This document shows positions 7,100 through 42,300 of a stretch of 64,000 nucleotides of DNA, piece after piece. Numbering within the stretch: position 1 is the first letter of the stretch; every line of letters begins with the position of its first letter. The notes under the pieces were generated by a model. It searched no databases. It had not been told where the DNA came from and was given only the letters and a program-made list of their open reading frames with translations. The position numbers and the translations under genes were made by a program. The DNA comes from Mytilus edulis (lineage: Eukaryota), in NCBI RefSeq assembly GCF_963676685.1, contig NC_092346.1, positions 44,392,001-44,456,000 on the forward strand, in the 5' to 3' direction.

Positions 7100-8570
7100 A
7101 ACGATAAGTAAATTCCTTCAGTAGCATCAGAACGCATTTGAATCAACCAATGACGTTTCTGATTCCGTACCACAAGTTTGATCCATACAGAATATTTGTA
7201 ACATTATTCAACCAATGCTTTCTTTCAAATAAAACTGCTAGTTGTAAAATAATTTGTGCTAAAAGGTATAGAACGGGTTGATAAATGAGATCTCAGATAA
7301 TCCCACATACAAAAACTAATTCTTTGACAAGGATGAAATTTTGGCGAAAAGTCAAACATGGGTTCAATGAATATTACATTGAACAGCAAATCAAAGGACT
7401 GACTTTGTTTGTATTGAATACCTAAGCTGCACAATAGTCCGTACAAACAAACGGTACATTGTCGGTTTAGCTACATGTTCGACGAAAGACTTTCCAATTA
7501 GATTAACTAAAATATCTTTACTGGAGTGAAAGAGGGTCTTCAGAATTACTGTGAAACTGTTTAATCGCGAAGTGGTATTAACCAAATATAGATTGAAAAA
7601 AACTCTAAAGAACTTCGGGATAATTTTGAATCTGGAACTTTCTCTGAAATTAGTTCTATCAAAACGTTTGATTTTTCAACTCTGCATTTCACTGTTTCCC
7701 TATTGAAATTGACAATTCACCAAAATGAAATAATCCACAATGCTTTGCAACATACAAATGGTAGTATACGCTATAAAATATATTACTTTGGAATATTATC
7801 CGGCATATTTTGTTAAAATGAACAAAATGGTAAAACATTCTACATTGAAGAACAAGTGATCAGTATGCTTGAGTTTCTAATTGATAACATATTTGTTGAA
7901 TTTGGAGGTAGACTTTTTTAACAAATTGTCGGTATTTCTATGGGAATGACCTGTGCGCCTCTTCTTGTCGACCTCTTTTAATATTCATATGAGTCGGAAT
8001 TCCTTCAAACACCTGAACTAACTAGTTTCAGAACTATAAATTGAAGAAACAACAAATACAGCTTACTCTGGTTCATTTTTAGACTTATATCTCGAATTTG
8101 ACATAAGTGGCAATCATAGTACCAGACACATTTCAATTTTGAAATTATGAATTGCCCCAACCATAGCAGCAATATACCAACTTCACCTGCAGATGGGATA
8201 TACGTTTCCCAACTAATTCAGTATAAAAGAGCTTGAAGTTTCTACTCAGACTTTGTGAAAGAGGGGTGAAGGATACCAGAGGGACAGTCAAGCTCATAAA
8301 TCGAAAATAAATTACCAACGCCAACGCTAAAGAAAAAGACAAACAGACAAATAATAGTACACAAGACACAACATAGAAAACTAAAAACTAAGCTTCACGA
8401 ACTTCACCAAAAACTGGTGGTGGATCTTTGCAAAAGTCAACAGTGTCTGATCAGAAAGTTGATGAACCAGTGTTGTCAAAGAACATTTCGTCCTTTTTCT
8501 AAAACAAAAGATCGTCGGGAAATACCTTGCTGATAAATATTTCGTATAAACTTCACAAATCACGATGGTC
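7100..8570 (+). pseudogene. Decayed Penelope-like retroelement reverse transcriptase
   Basis: Frame-broken motifs Y*IPKLHNSPYK (~7412), KNSKEL, SIKTFDFSTL (~7655), MLEFLIDNIFVEFGGR, QIVGISMGMTCAPLLVDLF*YSYESEF (~7922) and SNIPTSPA.GIYVSQLI (~8167). Many stops and frameshifts, and a nested repeat at about 8260-8425. Ends are approximate. Confidence 0.85.
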
Positions 8571-11336
8571 TTGAAGTATAGATTCTAGGTGCTGACGTTA
8601 TTTGTCATCTAAAATACGTGTTATAGTGTTCATTCATTTGCCTTGTAAATTGTTACTCTTTCTGTTTAGTCTATTTTTGGTTGAATCCATTTAACAAGGC
8701 TCAGCACTTATACAGCCTGTTGTTGTGTTGTTGTGTATTGGTAAATTATTGTAGTCTTGTCATTTGTTTTTGCGATTATGCTTTGTCTATAAGCCTTTTT
8801 GCATTTCTTTGTTGACATATTTGATCGTTTTATAGTTATTGATATTATAACTAAATGTAGACTGCCTTTACCTTAATTTTGACATTTTTACCTATTATGT
8901 TTTTGTATTTTGTTCACACATTGTTGTCAATATAATAGGATTTTATGCACAGGGTTGAAGAAGTGATAGGTTTAGCTATCTATGCAACCAGGCTTAATCC
9001 AACCTTTTCTACATAAGAAAATTCCTGTATCAAATCAGGACGATTACAGTTGTTTTCCATTTGTTTGATATCTTTGACTGTTTGTCCATGTCATTTTACT
9101 AAGAGACTTTCCGATTCGACTTTTCCTTGGAGCTCAATATTTTTTATACTTACCTTTTTTTCACTTTATATTCGTTCAAATATGTTTGAACTTCTGATTT
9201 TGCCATTTGATTAGGGACCTTCCATTTTGAATTTTTCTCAGAGTTCATTATGGTTGGTATTTTACTTTTTTCTTATTTTGAATGTAAATAACTCGTCAAA
9301 AATTCTATGAATATAGTTTGTTTCGCCAGACGTGCGTTTCGTTTACATGAGGCATATCAGTGTCGCTCGAATCAATATTTGAAAACAAATACAAAGTTGA
9401 AGACCGTTAATAACCGCAAATTCCAAAATGCTGTGTCAAATACGGCTGAAGCAATCTATTCGTGGTGGGAGAAAGCCTGAGTATTTTAAATATTTCAACA
9501 TTTAACATTAAATTTACAGAAAATGACCACAACCATGGTAAACGAAGGACAACTCTAATGCAATTTACAAGAGCGCAATTTTTTTTTTACATTTTACAGG
9601 ATGGTACTCAGAATAGAAGCTTTTATACCTTCTGATTAGATGATATATGATTGAAATTACTTTTCATCGAAAGCTTTATCAATTAGGTTTTTAAAATACA
9701 GAGTCAATTTCATATTTTACCGAGTATAGAAAATATATTCAATTTAAGCTCGTCGGAACCAAGACAAATTTTCATTTATCATTAATCGAAAAAAAAAGGT
9801 CAACTTTTGCCTCTTGACCATATACATTTTTTGACTGTAATGACACGCTGACATGTCTACAAACAGGAACTGATACCCAATGTTTTCTAGTTTGTGTGAA
9901 GACTCCGGGAAAGATAAGATGGAATACCACTGATGCTCTATTGAAAATGCATTATGAATAAATGAACTCCTGTAGCACTGGAGCACTGGAGAACTCGCAA
10001 TGAATGGATATAAGATGCAGGTGATGTATATACTTTATGAATACATAGAAAGTGTTATTAACTACCTACTGTAAAATTGAGAAATGAAATGGGGAATGCG
10101 TCAAAGCGACAACAACCCGACCATAGAACAGACAACAGCCGAAGGCCACCAATGGGTCTTCAATATAGCGAGAAACCCCCTCACCCGGAGGCGTCCTTCA
10201 GCTGGCCCCTTAAAAAATATGTATAGTAGTTCAGTGATAATGGACGTGTATACGTTATATATGTTTATGACTTTGTATTGACAATACGATAATGTACATA
10301 TAGAACTTTGTATACGATAATTTATACATAGGTTTGTGTATACGATATGTATACATAAGTTTAATTCTGAACTATTAAAAGTCATATGAAACCTCAAATA
10401 AAAAAAAATGATGCATATGTTTTTTATGACTAAATGGATGGTTTTCATTATAAAATTTATGTACATATACTTTTTTAAGAAAATTCTTTAATTTGTCCAC
10501 ATTTAGAAGAAGTTTATTTCTTTTAATTGCTTGCTTCCAGGAAGCAATTCTCCGACATACATTCCGTATGCAAGTAATCTAAGCGTGACACCTCTCGTAA
10601 AATCCGGTGATCGCAATACGCATGGATCTGTCTTTAAATAAATTATTATCTGATTATACATGTTATACACGTGCTCAATATCCATGCATCTTTGTTGATT
10701 GTTTACTATAAGGTGACAATCGATAAACTACGGCTTCAAAACACAGCAATTAATGAGCAGCCATATTTGTTAGATCATAACAGACTGACTCTCAAAAACA
10801 AATGACGATTATACTATATTTTGGCGTAAGAAATGAAAAAATCGTGCACAGAAGACTTAAGTTTATGATATATACATGCATTGGTTAAAAAATTGGATAA
10901 ACTTTATTTTTCACCGGTCACTCGTTTCATTTGACTTTAACCCGAAATTGTCAATGATATTGTCAAAATACAAAATAGCCAGATATCAGTGTACATACTT
11001 CCCATGGTTTTTGCACACAAACTAATTTGGAATGCACTATAAAAAAAATTGAAACGTTTTCTTCAGTAGAAAATGCATATCATGATGTCGTTCATGTGGT
11101 TTTTTTTTATACTTGTAAATTGTTTTACAGAGGTTTTAATTGGTTTTGTATGCAGGTCTCATACTTGTAAAGATAATAATCAAACTCCCCTTCAGTTCCA
11201 GCTCCGATCCGCATACGGGTCCTCATACGATTCTACCCTAATCACATTGTTCGAGTAAAGGAAAATAGTTCCAGAACGGAAACGATCACTGTACGGAGTT
11301 TGGATATAATGTTACACATTTTATTAAAATTAGCAA

Positions 11337-14300
11337 CTAACATGAAAATGACCGGATTAGTCCTGGTTTAAAAAATGGAAGCATTTTTTTCCTGAAATTT
11401 TCATCATCATATTTCACAGGCTTTATTGCCCGAAACTCAGTTGGCAGTTTGTCATCTTTTGTCATTAATACCGGAATGACCCTACCACGTTTGTTTTCAT
11501 CTTCTAAAGACATGACGAGGCAGGTGTTGGCTATGTATTGAAATATTTTTGACTCGTGGTAGTATTGAGATAGTAGAACAAAAATATAATGTCTTGTGAA
11601 ATACGGGTTCACATCAAGCAGCATTTCCCCTGGTTTTGATACTTCATCTTGAAGTTCTATTTTCACCTCAGGTATTGTATTATTAAATTTTTTCAAAAAG
11701 GATCCAGCTTTGTGAGAGTCTTCTGGAAACTCAGAGTGGAGGACAACAGCAGTTCCGTAGCAAATTTCATGATCTTTAAATAAAAATAAAATATTAACTA
11801 ATACAATAGAAAATAATATATGTATGTCAAATTGCTGATGATTTACTAACACTCTCATACGTATATTAGAAAGAGAGTTCTTAAAATTATCGTTACTTGA
11901 TCTGGAGTTTAAGTTATGTATATTGATAGCATAAAGTGATTTAATTAGTAGCTTGAAACAGTAGTATACGATTGGGGTCTTTACTTTTTTTCGTACCTCA
12001 AATGTGTAATGATTAGTCATCACAATGCACTGACTTATTCGACCAACGAAAATATCAAACGTAATTTTTTCTATTATTTTTTTTTTAATTTCTTTTAACA
12101 CGAAGGTTATAAGTAATTAAATAAAAATAGAATTTAAACTAGTTTTTTCTGAATAAAGTTTTAAATGGGCAAAGATATATTTCATCTGGTAAACTCATAC
12201 CAGATTTGTCGTCTGTTAACTCCTTATTCAGCTCTTTGACGTCTAACCTCCAGTCTACACCCAGCTCGCTTAAGCTATCTTTTATTTTTGTTCTCTTTTT
12301 CCTTTTCCTAAATTCATGTTAAAGAAGTTACTTTATATTAATCATAATAAGATATAATGCAAAACTGTATACTAGTATATGATTTTATAGCATTAATTAT
12401 TTAAATATGCAAATTTTGAAATGATGTAGAGAAACTTTACCATTGAGAAAGCGTTAATTATCAAAGATTTTTTTTTAAAGCGTAAATGTAGTTTTATCAA
12501 GCAGATTAACTGTATTTGTGTTTAAATCAATCAAAGTTCTAACGTTCATTTTATTAAATAAATAAATGCCTTTTCGAAATTTATAGATGATGAAAAAACT
12601 TCATTACAGTGAAAAAGATCAATGATACAATAGATAAATGTAACTTGACTAAATGCACCATACCTGTTTCTCAACAATGAACAAACGAAGTCAAACAGTG
12701 TCCCTTCTTTGGATGGCAACCCTGATAATCTTCTAGCCATCAAGGTTACTTCTTTGATTACTTCACATGATTTTCGTTTAGAGTATCGTCTGTGTAGGTA
12801 CTGTTTCTTTGAGTTTTTCGGAACAGCAACAGCAATATTCCAGCTTGAAAATGATTCCTTGGAAGGAAGAGAATATTCTGCATGCCGTTCTGTTTTAGAA
12901 TATCTTTTTCTTTGTTTTTGGCGAAATGTTTTCTTTTGTTCTGATGCTGGTTTTTGTAAATCTACTTTATGGGTTTTAAACATATATTTCGGGTTATCCT
13001 GTCCTTCAGGTGTATGTGGTATTGCTAGTGAGTCTTGTATATGATCTTTGATCGAATTTTGAATCAGGTGTTCTTGGTCTTTGTTTATCGTTGATGACTG
13101 ACTCTGTGTCTGACTTTGACAGGCCCCAATCTCGTCGACTGAAAGCTTCTTAACTGTGTCGACCAACGGACTTCGGCTACGCGAGACGCTTTTATTTCCA
13201 GTTCCAACGCAAGAGGAACATGCCTGATCCAATTTACATTTTTCGTTTCCACTTCTGAGATGAACAACCAACTGATCAGGTTTATCGAGACTTCTTCTAT
13301 TGCAAAACCCAGTTTTCGTGGTCGCAAAAAGTGCTGAATGATCGAATGTTCCTATTTCACTTGGACATTTCCTGATACCTTGATCATTGCACACCTCTGA
13401 TTGCTCAAGGTGAAGTTTAGATCTAAAATTATAATCGTTGGATTTGTTATTTCGTACAAATGGATGTATGAAAACTATTTTGTAATTTTATGCAGAATAT
13501 ATAGTCGAAATGACGGTGATGCATAGTGAAAGCTAAACAATTGTTTGTATGCTTTATGAAATCTCTTCAGCAATAGGTCTTGTCAAAAAGAAATAACAGT
13601 ACTACTACAGTTTTTTAAACGTCCTTGTGTGACAATTAGCATCGTTTTAAAACCATTAAAAGATAAATATACAATACAATTAGGCTTTCAATATCGTATA
13701 ACATTATGTAAATGTTTTTGTGAACTGAGTGTTTTCTTCAACTCCATAATGTTTATACTTGTTTGATTAAGAATAATTTCCCTTGGTTTTAGGATGAGGC
13801 AGCTCTTAACATTTTCCTATGTTTCTTAATCTGATACGCGTATTGTACTTTCAACAATGAGCGAGTGCCATTACTTGTGATCTAAAAAAAGTATGTTCTT
13901 TGTTGTTAATTCTGGAAAACAAAATCTCACCTAAAAGGAAGAGGATGTTTAAAAGTCTTTAGTCTCTCACAACATTCTTTTTCATCAGTTTTTCTCGCTA
14001 CCTCTGTTTTGTCTAAAACAGGATCCCTTCTAGTCTATAAAAAATAAAAACCAGTAATAGAATAAGGAATTGGAAATCACCTGTTGTTTTGTTGATAATT
14101 CTACCTTTGATTGTGTATAGTTTCATGGACTTCAATCTTTTTGAATTTACTTTTCATGTGTATATACTCAGTTTTTTTTCATACTTATACACTTTGAACA
14201 CTTTATATTCGGAAAATAATAGGTATTTTAATGAAAAGATTGTGTCGCTGGGAGTTTTTCTCAATGTTGTTGAAAGAGTAAAAAAATATATAAAGGAACA

Positions 14301-17300
14301 CTTTATATTTTTATTAATCTTTTAAAGACTTGCAATGGTCATTTTCATCTTATTGCAATGCGGACTGGTGTTCTATGCACTTTTATAAGATTTCATTGGT
14401 TTGATGAAGAAATTTACCTTTATCCTTTAGGGAAGGCTGTTTGCGCTCGTGTACATTTGTCAATTTTATCCTCATTATTTAAAACAAGAAATAATTTGAC
14501 GTTATTATAAGTCATTCTCTCTGTATTCATATGTATAAAGTTTTTGTAATATGGCCACTGAAAATCGAAACGTTTCTAGTTGTTTTATTTAATTATTTCA
14601 ATTGTTACCAATATAACAACTGTACCACTGAATTAACCGTGAGAGAAAAAAATAGTACTTACTTTATCAGTGTGTTCTTCCACTACGTATTTAAGTGACT
14701 TAGAATTAGTACATGGTTTGTTACCTGAAATAAAATAAATCGTTAAATAAATAGTCATTATACAAGGTGAAGTATTTGTGTCTCAGCAAACTAAAATGGG
14801 AGTAAACTTAAATAATTTAAGAGTGTTTGGATTCACTTTTGCTTAAAACTTCTTTTATATAATTTGTGGGATTTGTTTATTTTGTTTATCTTCTTGGAAT
14901 TTTAAATCTTTATTTTATTTGCATTTTTAAAGCAGTTTCTCGAAAAGAATAGAAGTTGAAACTATAACAAGTCATTTGGGAAAATATGTGAAGCACTTTA
15001 AAACTTGGTTAACTCAGCTTCATTCTGTTGTTTTCTGACCAAACGCAAAAGCCTGTAATTCAGTTGTTGATAGTTTGTTTCATTTTGCATGTGTAAAATG
15101 CTCATTTGTTTTACACCTTTTTGACCGTCGCGTCATATGTCAATTTTATATCTGTTCTTATGTTCTCTGTTGTAAGGTTGGGGTTGAGCGTCACTGATAA
15201 GTCTTTTGTAGTCGAAACGCGCGTCTGGCGTAAATATAAACTTCCAATCCTGGTATCTATGATGAGTTTATTGATGGTGTTGCAAAACTGAAAATATATT
15301 AAAAAACATTATATTTACATTTCCCTTAAAATATATGCAAATTTATGAAACATACGAAAAAAACCATTAAAACGAACTGTCATAAATATATATAATCCTT
15401 CGTAGCAAATGATAGCATGCCCAGAAGGTACATCTTAGGTAAACGTAACATTTTTTTTGTATTAAGCATAAAGTTACATTTACCTCTTAGAAGCCTAACT
15501 GGACACTCTGTCAAGATATTACGAAAGAATAATGGAATTTAAAAATATTTACCTCGGGCATTTAAAAACCACTTTGTTTGCTCTGGAGGTTCCAATCTGT
15601 TCTTCGCCTGTAAATATACATGTTTAAATAGTTCAAGTTTAGGACAAGAAGTTTCATGGAAAGAAAAAATGATACTAGTATACTCTAGAATATATATGAT
15701 TATCATCTAACGTTCTCAAAATGCAAGTTGATACGACATTCCCGGGATAGCGTTTCCTATTATCTTCCCTTGAGACATGGTCACAGCTTGATAGAGGGTT
15801 GAAGCTCTTAAACTAAGTGTTCCGAGTGTTAAGGTTGAAAAAATCTCTTAAAAAATCAACGAACGCCATCACGAGTTGATTGACCGTTTAGTGTCACAGG
15901 TGATGACGAATATAATTCAATCGTCATAACCACTATCCCCTCCATCCTTTTCCCAGAAAGTGCTCTTCCAAATAAGACTTACCGACGTCTTTGTACTTAT
16001 AAGAACAACATGAGGCGTGCCACATGTGGATCAGGATTTCATTACCTTTCTCTTTCTGTAGCGCTTGATATCAACCTCGTGTTTTCGTTGGGACATACTT
16101 TGGTTTTCTATGTTGTGTTTTGTATAGCTTTATTTGTTGTTTGCTCTTTGTTCTATTGTTCTCTTTTAATTTGCCATGGTTTTGTCAAAAAAAATTTCGA
16201 CTGTTCTAGTTTGGATGTCATTTTGGCATTTTTGCTTCTTTTTTATATTTTTTTTTTTGTAATCAAAGATTTTTTACAAATTTAATAGCATACATTTATT
16301 ATTTTCTAATATCAAAGATTTTATTGTTTCAGTTTGTTGTGATCAATGACACTTACTGGAAATTTGAATTCCGTCAATGAATGTTTAACTGTTTCAATTT
16401 GCAAGTCAATCCTATCTGTAAAACAAAGTAATCTATTAGATAACTCAGATTTTGGGCATCATTCGGCTGAAACAAAGTATTCTAATGAACAGACACGTAA
16501 AAACAAAAACTATACGACTTTTGACAAAAAGATTTAATAATTTAACATAAGAAAAAAAGTTGCCATAGATACTTCATTCATTGTTAACAAACAAACCAAA
16601 GCTCGTCATGTAATGTTGCCATTTTGGCGGTATATTTAACATTGCCATGAAGCGCAAGGTTTGGCTAGCCACAAAACCAGGTTCAACCCAGTGTGTTTAT
16701 TTAAATGTCTTGTACCAACTTAGGAATATGGCAGTTGTTATATAATAGTTCGTTTTGGTGTATGTTGTATTTTCGGTTTTGTTTGGTTGCACTTCAGTGT
16801 TCTTTTGTTTCCTTGTTTTCCTGTTATAGTTGATGTTTTTCTCTCAATCGATTGGTGACTTTTGAACAACGATATACTACTGCTGTCTTTGTTTACATTG
16901 ACTTTTGCTATTGAATAATAGTACTTTCATTGGCGATCATACCAAATATTTTGATATTGTTACTTTCAGTAAAGAACTCTATGAGGCTTGTGGAAGTTAT
17001 ACAATGCTCTACTTTTGAGTTATCGTGTATATACACCAAAAAATGTCTTGTTTAAAGAATATTACCTTCTTTGGAACGTGTGTTAACTTCGTATATAATT
17101 TGGAATTTCTGCTCCAAAAACTTCGGTTTCTTTAGGTATTCCTCCAAAGCATTTGCTATGTTACAGCACTGGTCAAAATAGATCTCAAACTGTGATTCTG
17201 TTATATTTGTATTTGTTAAATGACATAACTCGTTTCTAATTCTCATCAGCGTTGTTATAAGTATTTCAACATTGTTTTTCTCGTGAATATGTCGAAGAAG

Positions 17301-17567
17301 TACCGCTATGGTTGTTATGTCGAAAGGTCTGTATCCCGTTCTTGAAGCATTGCATATGAGTTCTTCTTCTCTTTGTGTAAATCGTTTCTTTAACTTGTTT
17401 TTAACTGCATTATAGTAGTCTTCTATTTTAGAATTGGCAATAGAATGATGTAAAAGTTCCCTGAGCAGCTCAGTCAAATCATCAAATATAATTTTGTTCA
17501 AAATAGATAAATACTTATTACACTCCAGTAGTATATAGTCCTCTGAAGACGTTATAGGAAACGGCAT
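11337..17567 (-). CDS. HEPN (DZIP3/hRUL138-like) - low-complexity linker - TICAM/TRIF-like TIR domain protein, about 656 aa, 6 coding exons
   Basis: Exons 17567-17066, 14724-14663, 14034-13931, 13422-12664, 12307-12201 and 11773-11337 are all GT-AG, phase-compatible and free of internal stops (1971 nt). Exon 1 has FDITTIAVLLR...RIRNELCH (DZIP3-HEPN signature plus Rx4H). The last exon has AVVLHSE..EDSHKA...KPGEMLL...IFVLLSQYY...NTCLVMSLE...RVIPVL, matching the TICAM-type TIR pattern. The ATG was chosen because an in-frame TAG lies just upstream, after the acceptor at 17623. Confidence 0.8.
15186..15232 (+). ncRNA. Degenerate hammerhead copy in intron 1 of the HEPN-TIR gene (antisense)
   Basis: GAGCGTCA-CTGATAA-GTCTTTTGTAGTC-GAAAC-GCGCGTC-TGGCGTA, with a G8A change and a damaged stem II. 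Further decayed copies lie at about 9324-9368(-), 20671-20716(+), 26860-26905(-), 27765-27810(+) and 54102-54125(-, truncated). Confidence 0.6.
15700..16060 (+). pseudogene. Highly decayed 3' fragment of a Penelope-like element, intronic
   Basis: aaatctcttaaaaaatcaacgaacgccatcacgagttgattgaccgt resembles the KSLxKFYGRHHxLVDRY thumb end typical of this element family. Confidence 0.45.
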
Positions 17568-18469
17568 TTTCACATTTTCAGGATTCCTTAAGAAATCCAC
17601 CAAATTCTAGAAAATATAACTACCTGAAATAAACGATGGCAAATTTTATAAACTGTGCCCAATGTAGATGGTGTTAGGTCAAACAAATTTAGCTGGAATA
17701 ATAAAACAATTGTAATTAACATGCATGATGTTTTTTTTTCACTTCTTTTTGCAACAATACTTTGTCCTTAACTTGTCTGCACTGCATTTAAAACGCTTGT
17801 CTAAAAATGTCATCAAAAACAATACGGTAAAACATTTGAAAAACAAGGAGCAGAAAAAGAAAACAGTTAAAATCTCTTGGGTTAAATTGCCGAAGTTTAT
17901 AACTGTTTCAACGTTTAAAGATGCTTTAAAGTTTCTTATCATGCATACATTGCGTGCCTTGAATAATTGGTACATCGTTGTTTTGCCTACCAATTGTTTT
18001 GACTTTAGTGCCACTCACTTATGAATAAGAAACGCGCCTCTGACAAACAAACATATTATTCCTGGTATCTAGGATAACATTTGTTTTCAATACTGGATCT
18101 TCCTGTCGGTAATATGCTATTAGACTAGCGTTTGTTTTCGTCAGCTTTTATATGGACTTCCCGCTTTTTCAATTAACAAGTTAAGATTTCAGTAGTGTTG
18201 TAAGAATATTTTTTTTCAATACCATTTCTGGTTAAACTTTCAGCTTTGAATGTATCACTACCGCAGTATTAAAGCAAAAATCTCCAGGGTTTGTTCATTT
18301 CTGTTAACTTACTGCTCACCGAATACTTAATTTATTCAAAAAGATACGGGTTTTTTTTCTACCCCAGGAATAGATTGACTACCTAGCCAGATTTGTCGCA
18401 TTCGTTTTGCGATTTCTTGTTTTTGAAGATCTTCAGTTTCGTATTGATTTTGATTTCAAACACTTTGAA

Positions 18470-21400
18470 ACGATTTGCGTCCCAAATGAGTCTGAATTGG
18501 ATGAAAATCGCAGCTAGTGTTTAAAAGGTGTAAACCACGAATCTTTCAACTTTTTTTAAATGCTCTAGAAAAAAAGAGCGAATTGATTTCGAATTGTATT
18601 TTTTTAAATTGCAGGGCACAAGCTTAAGTATTTGTCTGAAACACCCAAAATTAAATTGTCTTTCTTATCAATCATATATCAATATAGAAAAGTGACAAGA
18701 ATTGCATGCAGGCGAAAAAAATCACAATTCTAGTAGTTGTCAAAACTGTATAATAATAACATAGAAAAATAATCTATTTTAGATCATGTATATAAATATA
18801 GAAGTTTAAAAATAACCATTTCATGGAAATCATGTTATGATTAATGTAAAATATATCTTTTATATTTATTTGCTTCTCCTGTTAAATTTTTCACCAATTA
18901 ATATCTCAAGTTATAAAATTGTCACATTTTATAAAAAATATCCCTATCAAAATAGTATTCTTGACATTCGAGATTTGCTATGATTACCGACAAATAAACA
19001 TGACAAAGGTGACGACATCGACTAATATATAACCTCTAAATCCCTTTCCTGTGATAAATTGCCAATAAAAATGAAACTTGTACCTAATGATACTGAAATT
19101 AACATTTTTAATACACATGAAAAAACAACTTACCGACACATCTAAGATGCCTCTATTTAATTTAATTTGATAATTCCAAACATTTTGACAATGGTCCAAG
19201 AAAAGATCACGCCATAATAACATGTATAAACTTTAGGTGGGCGAAAATACCCAAAGTTATTTTAAGCTAAAGAGGCGCGAATTTCAAATTATTTGAATAA
19301 TTGATAACAAATATTATAGTTTTAAAAACATGTTATAGAATGGCATACAGACATATATACATCACATGATGTGTAGTTAATTTATTAGCCAAATGTTTAC
19401 GTTACTTTTAGATTCATAAAAAAGAACAGTGGCAAATATTCACATTCTTTGTATTAACCATCTTCTTTTTAGAATGTTTACTCCTTTTGCTGAATTACAT
19501 CTGAGGAAAAGTTTCACGAAAGAAGAAAGAGCGACTACAACATTTCTGAACTTGAATGTATCTCCTATATTCAAATCCGACTTTTTGTTTCCTAAAATTC
19601 ATTTTTAAACGTGTATCTGGCGTACAAAATTTTAATCCTGGTATCCCTGAGGAGTTTATTTGCTCAGTTAAATGTTGTATTACTTTTTTCTTGTCTATAT
19701 GTCACTAGATATGTCAATGATGGAGGTAATTTAAGGGTAACTAAATAAGTCACTAACTTCAATAAAGTACTTACAACAATGATTATTATTATTAACTACA
19801 TTTGTGAAGACCTTGCTAAAAGAGTGTGTTACTTTAAAGATGCATTAACTTGATAATAGTTATTACTATGAAACAATATAGATCTAGTACTTTATATTGG
19901 AACGTAGTTACAACGACTATTGCTACACTGCATATGTTTGGTCATATTTCAAACTATTTAGGTTAAACAAGTACATTTTAAATCATTAGACTGACATAAA
20001 CGAACAAACAAAAATACCTCATGGAGAAAAAATCAAATGTAATGAAGATGCCACTATTTTGTTTTATCAAATCCACTTAACCGCAAAGGAAAGTAAAAAA
20101 AACGGGGATAATTCGGTGATGTCCAGGTATAAAAAGTGTCTACGACAAGGAGGAAATATATCAGTAGTTATTTGTGACACTGATTATCCACACAGCCAAA
20201 TCATGATATAAAAATCTCTCTTGGAAAAAAATGTCTTTTGAATATATGCCACTTATTTTCTTTTTCACTAATCTGCTAATTCACAGAGGAAAGTAAGAAA
20301 TCAGGGGATAAGTCGGTGATGTCCAGGTATGAAATGTGACATATCAGTGGCTATTTGTGATAATCCATACAGCCAAATCATAATGGTGCAATTTCAACTG
20401 TACCTTTTTTATCCTCTCTTGATAGGAGAAAAATGCGCTGGAACATGGTTCCAACTGGGGGATAAGTATATATGTTAATCACCAAAGTTACCCTGATTCG
20501 TTAAATACATAAGACATTTTTAAATAATTCCAAAATACCCCCACCGGCTTCTAAGCAGATTGCTTTATATTACACTAACCATTCATCTTCATGTAAATGG
20601 TTTAAAATTTCCGCTTTTCGAGAAACTTCATATTGTAATGATTTCGACTTAAAACCCTTTTAAATGATTTGAGTGCCACGGATGAGTCTAAATTGGACGA
20701 AACGCGCATTTGGTACACAATAATTGTGAATATGGTATCTTTGAAAACGTATTTCTATTCTTAAGAAAAATAGAGATAACCAGTTTTGAATTTTAACTCC
20801 TTAATATTCGGAGCAGAAACTTGCTTTGGTGTCAAAACCAAAAATAACCCTGCCTTTAAACAACAAAGAGGTCATTGGAAATCGTATATCAATATAGAAA
20901 CCAGATGCTCCGCAGGACGCAGTTTGATACGACCGCAGAGGTCAAACCCTTAACAGTTGGGGCAAGTATGGACACAACATTCAAGCTTGATACAGCTCTG
21001 AATTTAGATTGTGATTAAATAGTTGACACAGAATGGATGTGTTCTAGGAACTTAACAAATTTAAATTGGACATTTACCTATTATGGTTATGGTCCAATAT
21101 CCAAAATCTAAAGACATGCTTAGATTCAGCATATCAATGAACCCCAGGAATTTAATTTTTGATGAAATCAAATAAAGTTCAATTTCGGACCGTTTAGAAC
21201 TCAATGTGTACCAATTTGATAAATGGGCCCAAATATCAAAATTCTAAATGCATGGTTAGATTCAGCATAAAAAAAGAACCCCATATATTCATTTTTTGTT
21301 GAAATCAAACAAAGATAAATTTTCAACCCTGATTTGAACCAACTTGAAAACTGGGCCTATCATCAAAAATCTAAGTACATCTTTAGATTCAGCAAATCAA

Positions 21401-23795
21401 AGAACCCCAAGAATTCAATTTTTGTAAAAAATCAAATTAAGTTTAATTTACCCTTTGGATATTAATTCCTAAACTGTTGGGACCAAAACTCCAAAAATCA
21501 ATCCCAACCGTCCTGCTGTGGTCATAAACCCTCAAATATTTCTATTTACTTATACTAAAGTTATTGTGCGAAAACCAAGTAAAAGCTTATTTGGGATTTT
21601 TGGACCCTAATTCCTGAGCTGTTGGGACCAAAACCCCGAAAATCAATTCCAACCTTCCTTAAAACCATGTGTTAAAATTTTATTAATTTCTATTTATTTA
21701 TACTAAAGTTATTATCCGAAAATCTTAGGACGACGCTGACGACGCAGATGACATGATACCAATATGTTACCAATATACAACCAAAATATTTTTAATTTTC
21801 GCGGTCGTTTAAAAGTGACAAAAAATAGAATGCATGCCTAATCATCGCAATTCTACTAGTTGTCAATGATAAAATTACCCACAAGAGAGAGACATTTTGT
21901 TTATGTTGTCTAAATATGTATATTGAAAAGTTTAAAAATAACCATTTCGTTGAAATCATATGACTTCATCATGATTCATGTAAACTTGTGACCTTTTATA
22001 TGTACTTCCCCGGTATGCATCTATTTTACATCATTAATTCTCACAAATTATAATTGCCACACATGATTACAATTGCAGTGTTAATTAAAACAATATTTTT
22101 GCATTCTGATATTTACTATGATAATACTGACCTCACAAGGGTGACGAAATCAACTAATATATGACCTCTTAATCGCCTTCCTATGATATCTTGCCAATAA
22201 ATATGAAACATATATCTGTATGTTATTGAAATTAACTACTAAGACCAAATAAAACTTACCGACACATCTATGATCTCCAAATAATTCAAATGGCTTGGCA
22301 ATGATTCCAGGAAAAGATCATGCCATTATAAAGGTCAACGGAATTTCCTAAAGTTATTTAAAGTTCTTTTAAAGGCGCGAATTTCAAATCACTTTAATGA
22401 TTGATAGTTTCAATTAGATATTACAGAATGCCATACTGAAATATACACATCATATGTGTAGTTAATTCGTTGACCAATCTTTTATGTTACTTTTAAATTC
22501 ATTAAAAGATCTTAAAAAAGAACTTCGTCTGATATTTACATTCTATGCTTAATATAAATCATCTGTTTAGTATTGTTACTGTTTTACTGAAATACCCTTA
22601 AAAGAAAGAGCAAAAATAACTATTCTGCACATGCATGTTTTTCTTATATTTAAATCCGAGAACTCATTTTAAAACGTGTGTCTAGCGTACAAGATTTTAA
22701 TCCTGGTATCCATTGGGTTTTAATTTATCAGTTGGATGTTGTATCATATTTTTTCACTGATCATGCCTATATATCAATCCATGGGGTATTTTTAACATTT
22801 AATAATTGACTTTCTTTCAATAAAGTTACAACAATAATTATCTTTAAGAAGACCTTGCTAAACTAAAGTGTGTTACTTTATAAATTTATTTACCAATCAT
22901 TGGCCTTTGTCAAGCAAGATGCATAAACACCATAGTTCAATTATTATCATCATGAAATATATAATTTTATTTGTTTGGGGTGTAGTTACAAGGACCATTG
23001 CAGTTGTTTGGCGAAGTTTTAACAATGTATTTTGGTTAAAATGGGTATATTTTAAATCATTAGACTGGCATTAAAGGATATATAAAATCCCTCTTGGAAA
23101 AAAAAGTCTTATGTCTATATACCGGTACTACTTTTTTTTACACCACAAAGGAAAGTAAGAAAACCGGGAATAAGTCGGTGATGTTCACTTATAAAATGTG
23201 TTTTACGACTAGTGGTTATTTGTGACACTAATTATCTTCACAGCCAAATCATGATTGAGCAATTTCAACTGTACCTTTTTATATCTCCTCTTATGATCTC
23301 TTACATAAATCTTGATAGGAGAAAAGCGCACTGGAACATGGTTCCAACAGGGGGATAATGAGGAAATATGGCATTGGACATAAATAGAGCTGAGAGTGCC
23401 AGCAGCCGATGATATCTCTTATAAACGGTCCTTTAATATCAATATTTTACAAAAAGATTCTACTTTTGTTGTAAATTCAAGAAAAACAAACACAAATGAT
23501 GAAATGTATTTTCAAACGTCAGTCTGTGTGTTATGTTAAAAATGTAGACTAGTAAGTGTTTGAAATGCCCTTCCATTGTTAGTTCGGCATAATAAAACAA
23601 TTGTGGCCCCTTAGAATCGATGAATATCCAAAATTGTCAACCCTCAAAAGTCATTTCACTCAGGGCTGCGCCCCCAATGAAATAACCTTCTCGTGTTGAC
23701 AATTTTGAATATTCACCTCTTCAACGGGCCATAATTGTATAATGTTAATCTCCCAAGTTACCCTGTTTCGTTATATACATACGACATCTTTATTT
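18470..23795. repeat. Old tandem segmental duplication (copy 1 about 18470-20530; copy 2 about 20660-23795, with two later insertions)
   Basis: Colinear shared blocks include atatcaatatagaaa (18676/20886), aacttaccgacacatcta (19127/22253), ggcgcgaatttcaaat (19274/22374), ggaacatggttccaac (~20440/23333) and aagttaccctg (~20485/23755). Confidence 0.85.
20899..21813. mobile_element. HINE/Helentron-like non-autonomous element with internal ~130-bp tandem repeats
   Basis: Absent from the sister copy of the duplication (empty site atatagaaaa|gtgaca near 18690). Subterminal inverted repeat acgaccgc/gcggtcgt. Internal repeats ttagattcagca..aaccc at about 21120, 21257 and 21383. Confidence 0.7.
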
Positions 23796-24253: not shown

Positions 24254-25559
24254 TTTAAAGAACAAAATTTAGTGAAAACAACGGCAATCGCATAAATTAC
24301 AAGGTTATAATAGGCAACATCAGTTTACCAATGTTCAAATACTAGTATCATAAATCCATTAAGAAGATACAGGTCAAGGTAAACGGAAAACGGAAGTAAT
24401 CGCATGAACTTCAACAATGAGCGAGACATTGTGCGTCGACGTGGTTATTAAGTGTCTCCTATTATTGGTACATCGATGTCAGAATCGGAATTAGGATGTA
24501 CTCGGAAAATTAACAGGTCAGACATTTATTTCTTGTATCTAAAGAAACAAGACCACAAAAACATGTTGCAAATATAAACTCATCACAGATCTCAGTATTG
24601 GCGCGCGTTGCAAGTGATTCGTACACAGACACATATCATTGGTCAACCAATTTTGCCTAATGACGGTGAAACTTGTACTAATCAATATATGTATATAATA
24701 TCCAGACATTTTATAAATATATATCTGGAAGTTGACAATTGATCTATGTGAAGGTTCTATATGTATTTTGCTGCATGTAAGTGAAGAAATGTTGTCCTAT
24801 GTGTATACTCACGACCTCTTTAAATATCAATTCGCTAATATCCTCTTTGATGCCCAGCATTTTATTAACATAAATGTGTATTTGTTGTTGGAATCAGTTT
24901 CACACCTTCTGTATTGACATGAATTATCATTGAAGTGGTCGTAATTATAATTTAATTGTTTACAAATCTTATATTTTTTTTATTTAAGTACTAAGGATTT
25001 CCTACCCAAGAAATAGATTACCTTAGCTAAATTTTGCAAAACATTTCGGAAAATTTTGTCCTCAATAATCTCCACCTTGGTACTATATTTGTTTTTTTCT
25101 TTTTTTTTTTTTAACTCGAGCATCACTGTCCAAAAGTAAAATAACAAATATACCAATCGCTGATGAAAATTCTTAAAATACAAAAGTTCCTAAGCAAATG
25201 GCAGAATCAAAAGTTCAAACGCATCAAACGAATGAATAACAACTTTCAAATCGCAAGTCCGACATACAAAATTCTAAGCAGAGTATTATGATGAGTTTAT
25301 CTTCACAAGTACGATTTTTCGTGACCTTAAACAATTGAAGTATGTTTACTTCGATTTCAACTGTCGTCATAGAAGCCTTTGTTTTATGGGTCAATCTTAC
25401 TCGTCACTTTTTCGATTTAACCTGGTTAATGGTAACCTTACTATTATACATGCTAAATTCAAAGATCGATTCCGTAGCGAAGTTGTTGCCAACATCTGTA
25501 ACATTTCCAATCTTTATAAAGTTACTAGGAATCAAAAGGTACCAGGCTGATAATTTTAT

Positions 25560-25603
25560 ACGCCAGACGCGCGTTTTGTCTACAGAAGACTCATCAGCGA
25601 CGC
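25560..25603 (-). ncRNA. Type I hammerhead ribozyme, core-mutated copy
   Basis: GCGUCG-CUGAUGA-GUC(UUCUGUA)GAC-AAAAC-GCGCGUC/UGGCGU. GAAA is changed to AAAA (catalytic G12 lost). Confidence 0.7.
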
Positions 25604-25917
25604 TCAGATCTAAAAAAAATAGAAAGCCAAAGCAAGTTCAAGGTTGAAGAGCATTGAGGACTAAAAATTCCAAAAAGTTGTGCCAAATACAGCTAAGGTA
25701 ATCTATGCCTGGGATGAGAAAATCCTTAGTATTTCGAATAATTTATATTTTTTCAAACAGTAAATTTATAAAAATGACCATATAAGTGATATTGGCGTCA
25801 ACACCGAAGTGCTGACTACTGGGCTGATGATACCCTCGGGGACGAAACGTCTACCAGCAGTTGCATCGAGCCAGTGGTGTAAAAAGTTATCAAAAGGTAC
25901 CAGGCTTATAATTTTAT

Positions 25918-25961
25918 ACGCCAGACGCGCGTTTCGTCTACATAAAACTCATCAGTGACGC
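25918..25961 (-). ncRNA. Type I hammerhead ribozyme, intact core
   Basis: The minus strand reads GCGUCA-CUGAUGA-GUU(UUAUGUA)GAC-GAA-AC(GCGC)GU-C/UGGCGU. Stem I is GCGUCA:UGGCGU, stem II is GUU:GAC, stem III is minimal and palindromic, and the cleavage triplet is GUC. Confidence 0.85.
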
Positions 25962-28900
25962 TCAGATCTAATAAATTAGAAAGCCAAAATAAGTACAAAG
26001 TTGAAGTGCAGTGAGGACCAAAAATTCCAAAAAGTTTTGCAAAATACAGCTAAGGTAATCTATGCCTGGGATAAGAAAATCCTTAGTATTTTGAATAATT
26101 GATATTTTTTCAAACAGTAAATTTATGAAAATGAACATATAATTGATATTAATGTCAAAACCGAAGTGCTGACTACTGGGCCGGTGATACCCTCGGGGAC
26201 GAAACTTCCACCAGCATTGGCATCTACTAAATTGACATTAATAGATACATGTGGTCCATGACCGAGTTAAAAACTTAGACACTGGTACTGCCATAAAGTT
26301 CATTATAGCTACTTGTAAAGTGATAATTTTCGTTGTTCTTTATAAAACATTGCTAGAGTAGCATTTGGGTTCAGAATATATCTCTGTTAGAAGTATCACC
26401 ATAATGGGAAAAAACACAGGCACAGAAAAATCAGCGTTACAAACTAAAACTGAGGTTAAAAAACATCAGCTATAAGAGGAAAACAACGAAACAACAGAAA
26501 CACTGAAGTACAACAAAAAAACAGAACGACAATGCAACACACACCTGTCAGAAACGAACTATAAGATAACAACTGCCATTTTCCTGACTTGATACAGGAC
26601 AAAACCTCCCGCTTTTATGACATTGTTTGATTGATTGATTGTTGGTGGCTTAAAGTCCAGTGGCAAATATGTCATGCATATTCAGGACGATATGACATTG
26701 TTAAATATAACACTAAAATGATAACATTACACGACAGGACTACAGTAAAAATATATGCAAGAACATTACGGACAGAGAAATACACAAGTAAACATTACAA
26801 TAGTTCATTTCAACATGCTAATTACTATCAAAGGTACCATGCAGGCCTACAATCGAATACACCATACGCGTGCTTCGTCTACATAAGACCCACCGGCGAC
26901 GCCTAGATCAAAATAGTGAAGAAAGCCAAAAAAGTACAAAGTTGAAGAGCACCGATGACCCAAAATTCTAAAAAGTGCCAAACACGGATAATTTTATCTA
27001 TACCTGGAACAAGAAAATCCGTAGTATTTAAAATAATTCGTACCCTTGCAAACAGTAAATTTATAAAAAATTACTATACTATTGATGTTCATGTCAACAC
27101 CGAAGTGGAGACCATGCAACCACATAATAAAAACGAACTCGTAAAAAAACTAAGACAGCACATAAAACAGCGCAAAATAAAACCTGCATTGTCACACGAT
27201 GATAAAGTGGCGTCACAGGTAATTTAAAAAATGTTTGATATTGTTCAAAATCAGGTTTGTATTTTTTATTAATATAGAGACGCATAAAGGATCGTAAAAT
27301 CGATTGGCGAATAGTGTTACTACTCTAGACTGGAAGATTGACTATAGAAACTCTGAAACCATCGCGTTTTTCATTGGTACTAAAAAAAAATTCATTAATT
27401 CATTTAAAAATTACAAGTAAAATATTTGGACATAAAGCCAACCATCTAGTTTCAGTAAAGTGACCTTTGGTTTCATGTTCACAAGCTTAAATGAGATTTA
27501 TTTGCTCCCTGAATAAAGAGATAGTATTAACGAAAGAACATCGTCAGGATATCTGAAAGGAAAATTAGGAAGTTTAGAGGGTGTTTTTTTTTTAACTGTA
27601 TAGGCTTTTAAAAGACTGCTTTAGTTGAGTACAAGAACAAGTCAGATATGCAGTTAGTATTTTTCGAAATACTTGGGTTACCTTAGCTGTATTTGGGAGA
27701 AAAAAACTTCGTAAATTTTATGCTCTTTAACTCGGTATTGTTTTGGCTTAAAGACCATTTATTCGAGTGCCACTGATAAGTCTTTTGTAGACGAAACGCT
27801 CGTTTGGCTTACAGTATTATTTGCCTAGTATCTGCAATGCGTTAATTTAGTAGCATTATAATTATACCGAATTGTCAACTTGTCTGTGGAAACAAAAAAA
27901 AATCGTTGCCTCCTCGGTATTACGTCTTTAAAATAGAGAAAACGTTAATGCTTTATCCCTTCAGATATATATGTTATGGTTAATATGTTTATTTGCTCCT
28001 CCTTTTTATTTAATCGAACATATTGTATTTTCTTAACTTAAGAAACATCTCCAATATTTGATGTAAATGTGCATCTTATATCAAATTCTTTGAATATTTT
28101 CGTTGAGAAAACAGCAATCAATCAATCATATTGTTTTGCTTTAACTGACAGAGCAAAACATGAAACATGTTTTCCTTCCTGAAATTTTACATCCACAAAC
28201 AACAACTTTTCCTAAACTAGTGAGGTTTTGGAATAATTTTCAAAAAAAGTAAAATTACAAAAATACTGAACTCCAAAAAGGAAAGACCATTATCGAATGA
28301 CAAAATCAATAGCTCAAACACATAAAACGAATCATGTTCTTGAATTGGTAAAGGCATTTTCTTATGCAGAAAATGGTGGATTCAACCTAGTTTATAAGCT
28401 AGCTAAACCTTTTACTAGTATGACAGTAGCATCAATGCTTTGTGTCATTTTCAGCATTTTTTGTGATTTTTTTTTTCAAATGTTTCTACATATTTTAACA
28501 TTCTAGCCTTCAAAGTTCAGGAGTGAATATTCCTGATGAAATTAAATTCAGTAAAGTTCCTAGCTATGACAAAAGAAAATTATAGTGTTATTTTCAATAC
28601 CTAAAAGTGTCTTTCTTGTGATAGACAATTCATGATTTTGTGTTCTGTATAATTTTATAAGAAAGTTGTTTATTGTATAATAGATACCAAAACGCATTAC
28701 AAGAAAAAAAGCATATTCATTTCAACCAAATGAAGATAATTTCTATTGAAGAAGTTTCTATGTCATTAGTAATTCTAAATCATATGAATACAACGGTCAT
28801 ATGTTCCAATATTTTCAATACACTGTCAATAAGATGAGGTTGATGATGAACAATGAGACAACTATCCACCAGACTATGGCATTTTTTTATGTGTTGATAA

Positions 28901-39300: not shown

Positions 39301-42300
39301 AGCTACATGATCCTGACTTGGGATAAGCACATAAATACTGTAATTGTGTTAAACATGATTGTAAGTGCTCAACCCTCCCCTAACCTGGGAGATTGGTGTA
39401 ACTGCACAACATAAGAACAAACTGTTAAATGAGTTGGAAAGGGCTTGATGCAACAGATTGGTATGAAGCACACAAAAAAATCTAAAACATGTATCTCAAT
39501 TATGTTGTGGTTATAATGTTCATCTTAGATGAAGGTTATATATGTATAAGAATGATTCTGAACTGTATAAACAATCATCTTTTTTTCTTATTTTCTAAAA
39601 TATATCAGATTTTGATGACAACTCAAATTATTATCATGGAAATTTCAACACAGAGGCTTACAGCCAGTATGATGAGAACTATCAGATACAACAGCATCAC
39701 CAGGAGATCAGAAATCTGTATGCTCAGAAAAATATGTCAACTCAACAGAATTTATACACATCTGCACAGAGGGATAATCCAATTACAGTAACATCAGGTT
39801 TGTCCTTCATTGCTGTTCCTTACAGAATGAATTGAAATAGAAAAGTTTTTGTGAAGTGTCATAAATTTATTCAATGAATGGGTGATGATATGGGACATAA
39901 CTTCCGCTTCAGGTTAAAGTTTTTGGTCAAGGTAGTTTTTGAAGAAGTTGAAGTCCAGTCAACTTGAAACTTAGTACACATGTTCCCCATGATTATATCT
40001 TTCTAATTTTACTACCAAATTATAGTTTTGACCCCAATTTCATGGTCAACTGAATATAGAAAACGATAGTGCGAAGTTCAGGTTAAAGTTTTTGGGCAAG
40101 GTAGTTTTTGATGAAGTTAAAGTTACATCAACTTGAAACTTAGTACACATGTTCCCTATGATATGATCTTTCTAATTTTAATTCCAAATTAAAGTTTTGA
40201 CCCCAATTTCACGGTCCACTGAACATAGAAAATGATAGTGCGAGTGGGGCATTCGTGTACTATGGACACATTCTTGTTATTTTTCATTTGTACATACAAA
40301 TACATAATATTCAGTCTTTCATTGTTTTGACGTTACAACCAACTGAATTTGACACTTATTGTTGATTATAAAATTAAAGTGATTAAAGTGCATATACATT
40401 TGTACTTGACAAAATGATCTTGATTGTTAAAAAATAATTGGTTCATGTATATTTTGGGGGAAAGTTAAATTAACGAATAATATTTGAATACCTAATATAA
40501 AAATATAAAGGAGACGAGGTATGATTGATAATGAGTCTATTATACATTAACGACCAAAGACAAAAATATGAACAATTTAAAATACTGGTAACCATACAAC
40601 TTTCAACAATGAGCCAAACTGATATCAATTATTTTATAAAAAAAAATTGGGCATACATCAACCAACAACATTCACTGGATTACAGAATCTAGGTTTCAGA
40701 CAGACACATAAAGAATATTGCAAGGATAAAAATGTATGGGAGTGCTCACCCCTTGGCTTTACATAGGACAGGGGCGTAACAACACAATATAAAAACTGTT
40801 AAAAATCAGTTAGGAAAGGCTTGATGCATCCAATCAGTTCTAAACACAAAAACAAAAAACAAATAAAGAAAAGACAAAAAAAGGCAATCACAGTTACTGA
40901 AAGCTAATTCAAAGGCCAATTTCAGCTTAAAGATGAAAAAAAAGTTGCCAGAGAGAGTACCATTTATGTAATTGGAATATCTAAATATTTTTTGAAAGAG
41001 GTCAAAATAATATGGAAAAGATGTAGGTTCACATCAATGAGATAGTAACCCAACAATACAATACAACAAGAAAAGATGTCTATAATAATGCAATGTATCA
41101 TGTATTAAGTTGGAAGTATTATAAGGATCAACATATTGTGTTACCAGATAATTGATAATGATTTATATCTAAATAGCTTCAGGTGGATTTTGTGGACAAG
41201 ACATGCTATTACCTCATGGATGGTCAATTGACTGGACTGTCCGAGGACGCAAATATTACATTGACCACAACACTCACACCACACACTGGAGTCATCCATT
41301 AGAGAAAGAGAGTCTCCCTACTGGTTGGGAGAGGATTGAATCAAAAGAATTTGGAGTGTATTATGTCAAGTAAATATTGATTTTTAAAACATTTCTATTG
41401 CACTAGTAAAAAAGAATATTAATAGGCTAATGGTGCATGGCTTCACATATGAATATCAACCTGCTAACCAATTTAAGATGAACTATTTTTATTTGTTGTT
41501 TTTATTGGTTTTTTTTAAATTGTACATTTTTAACTAGACATCATGGGTTATTAATATGGTGATGTACGGCAGTCGGGTAGGCAGCCATTTCCTGTGACTA
41601 AATGAAGGTCAAGTTAGATTTTCACGACTTCTGCTTTTATCTTTGTTGACTTGTAGATCTTTAAGTAGAGAAAAGTGATACTTATAGCATTGTCCATGCA
41701 ACAACTTGAAAATGCCTTCATGAAATCTTACCAAATTTAGATATGTTGTTTTCTGTGACTAAATGAAGGTCAAGTTTGATTTTCCCTATTTTAACTTTTA
41801 TCATTTTTCAGGTGTAGACCTTAAAGAAGCGAAAAATGATACTTAGATTAGTTTTGGCAATTCCATTTTGAACCCAACACATTATTCCATTCTTATTTTT
41901 ACTTGATCCTGTTTGCGGATTTGGATTTTCAAATATCATTTTTATGACGAAAATTCAGTTTGAAAAATCTTTTTATTTGTTTCCTTTTAGTCATATAAAG
42001 AAAACAGCCCAGTATCCTCATCCATGTGCACAAAGTATACCAAACATGCATAGTTTCCAACCACCATTACCAGGTGCATTAGAGTATAGACCATCTATAG
42101 CTAGACAGCCCAACGTTCTTGTCCCAGCGAATCCATATCTTAATTCAGGTAAGTATTATTTCAAGAGTTTGAACCATGTTTGCAGTTGATGCCAAAGTCT
42201 TTTTAGTTTAATATTTCCAGACATTATTCATGCCATGGGGTCAGATTAAAAATAACTGCAAATATGAAATATTGAAGTGTAACAAAAGCTATTCATGCAG

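What the first reader, a model, noticed from the sequence alone, without database searches (positions are those of the whole stretch)
25535..26225. Retrozyme-like locus: 358-nt tandem units bounded by type I hammerhead ribozymes
Seen: an intact hammerhead at 25918-25961(-) and a G12A-mutated one a unit away (25560-25603). Stem III is reduced to the palindrome ACGCGCGU. Established: such minimal type I hammerheads occur in Penelope-like elements and in metazoan non-LTR retrozymes (reported in mussels among others); they can cleave as dimers through the palindromic stem III and release monomers that circularise. Inference: this is a genomic copy of a circRNA-producing, non-coding mobile RNA that borrows a Penelope RT, and a decayed RT of that type lies at 7100-8570. 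The class is known, but gene annotation would miss it.
Basis: partly seen in the sequence, partly recalled or inferred. Interest (0 to 1): 0.7.

Follow-up and report, generated by a model that had tools for sequence, protein, structure and literature searches.

The report
Mussel retrozyme carrying a Naiad signal
This is an aged copy of an abundant, already described kind of mussel repeat that contains a self-cutting RNA motif, but copies of the family nearly all end just before a short sequence, predicted to fold into a stem, that also opens Naiad jumping genes, which likely identifies the enzyme that spreads them and the signal it reads.

Summary
Observation confirmed: type I hammerheads at 25918-25961(-) and 25560-25603(-, G12A), 358 nt apart. 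The genome holds 15,117 exact cores. This is a roughly 10% diverged, 5'-truncated two-unit copy of the mussel non-LTR retrozyme kind (Cervera and de la Pena 2020). The hammerhead is the ordinary invertebrate type, not the minimal Penelope type. The insertions are not bounded by hammerheads: 55 of 61 sampled arrays end at one point about 42-49 nt past the cut, with scattered 5' ends. Right after that point lies a 58-nt motif, absent from Rfam, that opens three Naiad families here (87% identical to one) and 14 published Naiad entries; 7 of 21 predicted pairs covary. Naiad copies end at the same point. Likely mechanism: Naiad reverse transcriptase starts beside this motif and copies through the hammerhead site on circular or uncut RNA. 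The nearby decayed RT is a Naiad, but of the family with the least similar motif. This locus is not shown to be expressed. The scan noted the Naiad link before on other DNA of this genome; I retested it and did not find it in the papers searched.

The parts
25531..26224 (-). Whole insertion: 1.9 tandem units, 5'-truncated at 26224, 3' end 35 nt past the last cut site
   Evidence: each unit 89-91% identical to young family members and 89.4% to the other unit
25918..25961 (-). Type I hammerhead, core intact; predicted cut 25924|25923; one stem II pair is U.G where the family has C-G
25560..25603 (-). Type I hammerhead with G12A (25577); its cut site (25566|25565) and stem I 3' arm are intact
25566..25923 (-). 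Predicted 358-nt monomer, cut site to cut site (a permuted unit: post-cut segment, Naiad-type motif, U-rich body, hammerhead)
   Evidence: release from this locus not shown
25818..25875 (-). Naiad-type head motif (predicted nested stems around an invariant CUGCUGGUGGA / CCCCGAG core); here 3 of 21 pairs are broken (25870, 25862, 25852)
25797..25816 (-). Predicted 8-bp hairpin with a UUCG loop directly after the motif
   Evidence: sequence; circular fold
26175..26224 (-). Second, 5'-truncated copy of the head motif (outer stem's 5' arm missing)
25531..25565 (-). Terminal post-cut segment; the family's fixed 3' end, here about 7 nt short of the usual position
7281..9144 (+). Separate element: decayed, 5'-truncated Naiad (RT and 3' UTR), 73-81% identical to Naiad family 1; no hammerhead

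Best explanation
The locus is an aged two-unit copy of a mussel hammerhead repeat (non-LTR retrozyme) that was likely inserted by a Naiad retrotransposon's enzyme, which probably recognises the Naiad-type motif carried in each unit. Steps: (1) tandem copies are transcribed mainly from one strand (family-level reads shown; that it is the hammerhead strand is inferred). (2) The hammerhead cuts out monomers and a host ligase circularises them (published for mussel retrozymes; not tested here). (3) Naiad EN-RT binds the folded head motif, nicks AT-rich DNA and starts copying immediately 5' of the motif (inferred from the shared motif and shared end point). (4) It must pass the hammerhead site about 43 nt later, so the template is continuous there: a circle, or an uncut multimer (inferred; circle about 60%). 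(5) It stops at random, giving a fixed 3' end, scattered 5' ends and arrays of whole units (pattern shown). This copy has since decayed and is probably not an active source.
For: End pattern: 55 of 61 arrays end within -12..+2 nt of the motif's outer stem, 1 of 61 at the cut site, at most 8 of 61 5' ends in any 15-nt window, 18 of 61 longer than one unit; the end moves from median +42 to +49 in subfamily B, as the motif does. Motif in Naiads: 19 of 30 examined short-loop matches lie just upstream of a Naiad ORF; 12 of 15 fetched Naiad loci of three families (56-64% aa identity) carry it, and in all 12 it follows a copy of the element's 3' end, while the downstream 3' end stops before it. Family 3 head is 87% identical over 63 nt to the retrozyme's. 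Covariation: 97.6% of cells paired, 7 of 21 pairs changed on both sides, 0-2 in slid controls. 14 of 16 occurrences of the core 9-mer in the Naiad paper's supplement lie at the head of Naiad entries. PLE families with C-terminal endonuclease lack the motif. A second hammerhead family with an unalignable body and a diverged 340-nt unit in another assembly show the same layout. Internal initiation at a stem-loop is shown in vitro for another PLE (PMC11167929).
Against: No experiment links Naiad protein to this RNA. The covariation set is 8 related sequences from about five lineages, leaves out family 1, and the structure was derived from folds of the same sequences; the invariant core says nothing on pairing. 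A shared motif could be inherited rather than recognised. No target-site duplications found (3 of 55 at 7 nt or more; shuffled mean 0.6, maximum 3). Reads cannot tell circles from genomic tandems, and no read starts pile up at the cut site. In the PLE studied in vitro, uncut RNA was the main substrate. Arrays were chosen on an exact hammerhead core and come from the first 7.3 Mb of one contig. Library direction could not be calibrated.
Confidence: 0.7

Rival explanations
1. Same helper, but the template is an uncut linear read-through transcript of tandem copies; circles are a stable by-product and the hammerhead is not needed for transposition.
For: In the anole PLE, hammerhead mutants insert normally and uncut RNA is the main substrate. 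The mussel hammerhead is slow, about 0.1/min. 43 of 61 arrays are no longer than one unit.
Against: Runs of identical units (8 of 8 in one array) and an ABAB array fit repeated passes round a circle, though duplication gives the same. Circles are the dominant form in mussel tissue. Hammerhead stems covary between families.
Confidence: 0.3
2. The head motif is itself an undescribed self-cleaving ribozyme that cuts just 5' of itself; the fixed 3' ends would then be true RNA ends copied by ordinary target-primed reverse transcription with template jumps.
For: It sits at the extreme 5' end of Naiads, which lack hammerheads; other non-LTR elements have 5' ribozymes; invariant core inside covarying stems; no Rfam match.
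Against: Ends are spread over about 13 nt; mussel circles are stable and abundant; no read-end pile-up at the junction; the predicted fold is a nested rod with no pseudoknot found.
Confidence: 0.1
3. The helper is another retroelement (a hammerhead-bearing PLE or a LINE); the motif is a relic of Naiad origin or acts as a promoter.
For: Several young hammerhead-bearing PLE families with long ORFs are present; in Xenopus, retrozymes resemble the pLTRs of annotated PLEs.
Against: None of the fetched C-terminal-endonuclease PLEs shares the hammerhead, the post-cut segment or the motif; retrozyme and Naiad copies stop at the same distance from the motif; paired changes point to RNA structure.
Confidence: 0.12
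4. It is a satellite spread by DNA-level events such as unequal crossover, and the hammerhead is incidental.
For: Long tandem arrays exist; the 2026 preprint favours local tandem expansion.
Against: Dispersed short copies with one fixed and one random end are the mark of reverse transcription.
Confidence: 0.03

Closest known systems
Mytilus galloprovincialis non-LTR retrozymes (Cervera and de la Pena 2020, PMC7229834; parts 1-4 of 6 read, supplement not readable)
   Same: Type I hammerhead in low-GC tandem units of about 350-390 bp, thousands of copies, two size or sequence families, mussel host (host inferred from Naiad heads matching the Mgal/Mcor entries).
   Different: Sequence identity to the published clones not tested. 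The paper names PLEs as candidate helpers without a clade or signal, and in the parts read reports no fixed 3' end or Naiad motif. This copy has G12A in one ribozyme.
Naiad Penelope-like elements (Craig et al. 2021, PMC8557442; sections 5 and 6, passages, supplement passages read)
   Same: Same 5' head motif; same end point just before it; 5' truncation and partial tandems; no clear target-site duplication.
   Different: The repeat has no ORF and has a hammerhead, which Naiads lack. The paper's text has no 'stem-loop' occurrence and the passages seen do not mention this motif.
Xenopus retrozymes as non-autonomous PLE derivatives (Li, Clavereau, Pollet 2026, 10.64898/2026.07.22.740005; parts 1-3 of 5 read)
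   Same: General claim that animal retrozymes use PLE machinery and share terminal sequence with PLEs.
   Different: Vertebrate-centred; homology to pLTRs; no mussel or bivalve mention; no Naiad link or initiation signal.
PAc Poseidon element of the green anole (Frangieh et al. 2024, PMC11167929; passages and part 2 of main text read)
   Same: Reverse transcription starts inside the RNA at a stem-loop downstream of a hammerhead, matching the ends of genomic copies.
   Different: Autonomous, other clade, other structure; hammerhead cleavage not needed in vitro.

Membership tests
Metazoan non-LTR retrozyme | Type I hammerhead with conserved core and three stems | tested here: met
   scores below Rfam gathering; second copy G12A
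Metazoan non-LTR retrozyme | Tandem units of about 150-450 nt, low GC, one hammerhead per unit, many dispersed copies | tested here: met
Metazoan non-LTR retrozyme | No protein-coding capacity | tested here: met
   no ORF of 130 aa or more over the locus; LTR, PBS and PPT not searched for separately
Metazoan non-LTR retrozyme | Transcribed as RNA of the hammerhead strand | tested here: inconclusive
   family reads about 3.6:1 to one strand in one run, Naiad control about 1:1, direction uncalibrated; locus itself 5 of 5,798 reads at 99% or more
Metazoan non-LTR retrozyme | Self-cleavage and circular RNA | not testable with these tools
   published for mussel repeats; reads cannot separate circles from tandems
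Published M. galloprovincialis retrozyme family | Sequence identity to the cloned circles | not testable with these tools
   supplement not readable
Minimal PLE-type hammerhead | Helix III absent, located in the pLTR of a PLE ORF | tested here: not met
   2-bp stem III that covaries; no adjacent ORF; the genome's PLE hammerheads differ
Non-autonomous Naiad dependant | Shares a terminal sequence with Naiads | tested here: met
Non-autonomous Naiad dependant | Fixed 3' end and variable 5' truncation at the Naiad position | tested here: met
Non-autonomous Naiad dependant | Mobilised by Naiad protein | not testable with these tools
   needs biochemistry
Naiad (for the RT at 7100-8570) | N-terminal GIY-YIG, CxC and DKA motifs, C-terminal RT | tested here: met
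   met in intact relatives 81-84% identical; the window fragment itself is truncated and gave no Pfam hit
Viroid-like RNA with hammerheads in both polarities | Conserved hammerhead on the opposite strand | tested here: not met
   look-alike at 25824-25851(+) is the reverse of the Naiad motif; core variant private to this copy

The most novel reading that the evidence does not exclude
The Naiad head is an undescribed class of self-cleaving or RT-activating RNA, conserved from corals to bivalves and hemichordates, which replaces the hammerhead in Naiads; mussel retrozymes are chimeras that use a hammerhead to make circles and this second RNA to re-open or prime them for Naiad reverse transcriptase. 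(The weaker form, a protein-binding initiation signal, is the best explanation at about 0.7.)
Probability: 0.1. Interest if true: 0.88.

Novelty: new member of a known kind. Interest (0 to 1): 0.52.

Why it matters
The locus itself is one worn copy among thousands. The family-level pattern bears on two open questions: which enzyme moves animal retrozymes, and how Penelope-like elements choose where to start reverse transcription and come to form partial tandems. It names a clade (Naiad, family 3 closest), a 58-nt RNA with predicted pairs, and a start position, all testable with the in vitro system already built for another PLE. If it holds, a hammerhead circle parasitises a hammerhead-free retroelement through a captured recognition element, and the motif is a conserved structured RNA missing from Rfam.

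Tried and rejected
Antisense hammerhead at 25824-25851(+), which would have made a viroid-like two-polarity RNA: rejected. Of 70 distinct copies, 59 were parsed; 43 read CUGGUGA and 2 (both this locus) CUGAUGA, subfamily B lacks the GAAAC-GUC half, and the stretch is the reverse of the Naiad motif. Hammerhead-bearing PLE families as helper: no shared sequence in 48 loci apart from separate retrozyme insertions. Target-site duplications: none above shuffle. Pfam on the window's RT fragment: 0 of 5 frames hit. First covariation count had the 3' half one column off and is void; repeated. Calibrating library strand on a Naiad failed, both strands equal. Contig-level RNA runs X15, X16, X20 show presence only. 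A possible extra helix between the 3' end and the head was seen in two folds but not tested. The Lunse 2017 dimer paper was not available; dimer cleavage is known to me only from its title and. Supplements of PMC7229834 and of both bioRxiv preprints were not seen and may mention the ends or the motif.

Full report
1. Observation. The second has G12A; this change slows a full-length hammerhead about a million-fold by the authors' measure (PMC2553840, passages). Cut site to cut site is 358 nt; the array spans 25531-26224. The exact core pattern occurs 15,117 times in the 1.37-Gb genome, the reversed control 0 times. Across 10 hand-picked hammerheads from four families 93% of cells pair and 5 of 12 pairs change on both sides, including one of the two stem III pairs. 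Among 31 young contexts the core is nearly invariant, which says little because they are close relatives. Stem III is 2 bp with a GCGC loop, the type that Cervera and de la Pena describe for invertebrates, and a cloned mussel repeat cleaves at about 0.1/min. The minimal hammerheads of this genome lie behind the ORFs of other PLE families.

2. The family. Young copies form arrays of 355-360-nt units on many contigs; a second subfamily of about 368 nt is 83% identical to the window unit. The two window units are 89-91% identical to young members and 89.4% to each other, so the insertion is old. Size, host and abundance fit the published Mytilus retrozymes; identity to the published clones could not be checked.

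3. Ends. I took 70 loci around listed exact-core matches in the first 7.3 Mb of one contig. They gave 64 distinct arrays, with 3 further hits not anchored; 3 more rows were dropped as unanchored or at an edge, leaving 61. 55 of 61 end within -12..+2 nt of one stem, at median +42 nt past the cut in subfamily A (41 arrays) and +49 in B (20 arrays); 1 of 61 ends at the cut site; 5' ends are scattered. A cut linear monomer copied from its 3' end would end at the cut site, so the template must be continuous across it (inference). No target-site duplication was found. The window copy ends at +35.

4. The motif after the end. Before the look-up of earlier scan notes I had the end pattern and had classed the nearby RT as a Naiad not shown to be the partner; the notes gave the lead that a hairpin is shared with Naiads, which I then tested. 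A full-length Naiad has the motif directly after its upstream 3'-end copy and about 25 nt before the start codon. Of 45 short-loop matches 30 were examined: 19 precede a Naiad ORF, 7 have a retrozyme-body hit, 4 are other. A protein search found two more Naiad families; 12 of 15 fetched loci carry the motif, always after a 3'-end copy, and their downstream ends stop before it. Family 3 is 87% identical to the retrozyme over 63 nt; family 1 has an inserted hairpin and gives no blast hit. The same nested fold is predicted for retrozyme subfamilies and Naiad families, with 7 of 21 pairs changed on both sides in 8 sequences (family 1 left out, structure derived from these sequences). In the supplement of Craig et al. 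2021, 14 of 16 occurrences of the core 9-mer lie at the head of Naiad entries whose labels point to corals, oysters, mussels and hemichordates (taxa partly read from labels by recall; the number of Naiad entries was not counted, the paper gives 36 host species), with visibly different but complementary stems. Rfam has no match. The subfamily A form occurs 3,635 times exactly. A second hammerhead family and a diverged 340-nt unit in an AT-rich contig of another assembly, ending just before the motif, repeat the layout.

5. The RT at 7100-8570. Its intact relatives have an N-terminal GIY-YIG, CxC and DKA motifs and a C-terminal RT, so it is a Naiad, closest to family 1, without hammerhead. It is one of thousands of fragments.

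6. Expression. In one raw RNA run 5,798 of 8,710,588 records read lay on the locus at 85% or more, about 3.6:1 to one strand by my sum of the bins, which would be the hammerhead strand in the usual library type; 5 reads reached 99%; no start or end pile-up. A Naiad copy gave about 1:1 in the same run. The run may be of another individual or species. This shows family RNA, not circles and not this locus.

7. This copy. One ribozyme has G12A, the complete head has 3 broken pairs and folds at -20.8 against -29.3 kcal/mol for a young unit, and the other head is truncated. It is probably inactive.

8. Mechanism and rivals are set out in the fields above: retrozyme kind about 0.95, Naiad as helper through the motif about 0.75, circle as template about 0.6.

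9. Novelty. The kind is published (PMC7229834), and PLE dependence is proposed there and in a 2026 preprint on Xenopus. Searches for 'Naiad + retrozyme', 'Naiad + Penelope-like + non-autonomous + stem-loop', 'Naiad + Penelope + RNA structure + reverse transcription' and 'retrozyme + circular RNA + Penelope + target-primed' found no paper that, in the parts I read, reports the Naiad motif or the fixed end; subscription journals and unseen supplements are outside this. PMC7761336 was seen as passages only; 10.1101/721605, PMC10886601 and PMC6765202 as search listings only. The scan's own earlier notes report the same link on other DNA of this genome and are not independent support.

10. Verdict. 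Real, ordinary as a locus, a new member of a known kind; the family-level link to Naiads makes the helper question directly testable. Interest 0.52.

Noticed in passing
L191-L195, 3' UTR (for example L192:4548-5055): All 5 fetched copies of Naiad family 2 carry a decayed 250-nt retrozyme-like segment with a dead hammerhead in their 3' UTR, same strand, 72-73% identical; likely an old insertion now carried by an active family, though an origin of the repeat body from a Naiad UTR is not excluded.
   Followed up: partly
window 26826-27107(-), 9312-9529(-), 24906-25090(+), 15185-15258(+), 27678-27833(+), 54076-54126(-), 20666-20716(+), 19607-19643(+), 22672-22708(+): Nine more decayed fragments of the family; those with a hammerhead remnant end in the post-cut segment.
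   Followed up: partly
L175:1406-1550, L176:1406-1550; L141, L149, L151: Other hammerhead repeat families with CUGAAGA cores; the first carries the same Naiad motif, the second has a different downstream sequence.
   Followed up: partly
L137:99-600, L146:97-600: Units about 440 nt apart with a hammerhead-like core followed by a tRNA-like, A-box-like stretch (label recalled, not tested).
   Followed up: no
L014/L018 (one array on contig C8): Units alternate ABAB with 3 differences, as expected from a dimeric circle or a dimer duplication.
   Followed up: no
L145-L160: At least six young PLE families with C-terminal GIY-YIG and ORFs of 700-960 aa, several with minimal hammerheads behind the ORF.
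   Followed up: partly
window 17052-17606(-): Open frame with a DZIP3-like HEPN domain (PF18738, 33.8 bits).
   Followed up: no
window 11337-12116(-), 12546-13487(-), 44512-45735(+): Long open frames, probably host exons; the first looks TIR-like to me (recalled, no Pfam hit), the last is glutamine-rich.
   Followed up: no
window 18688-20465 and 21811-23358: A 1.6-kb duplicated block, 65% identical, each copy with a short retrozyme end fragment inside.
   Followed up: no
window 39908-40282, 50846-51055, 59964-60341: Tandem units of 169 and 161 nt, probably satellite or transposon cores.
   Followed up: no
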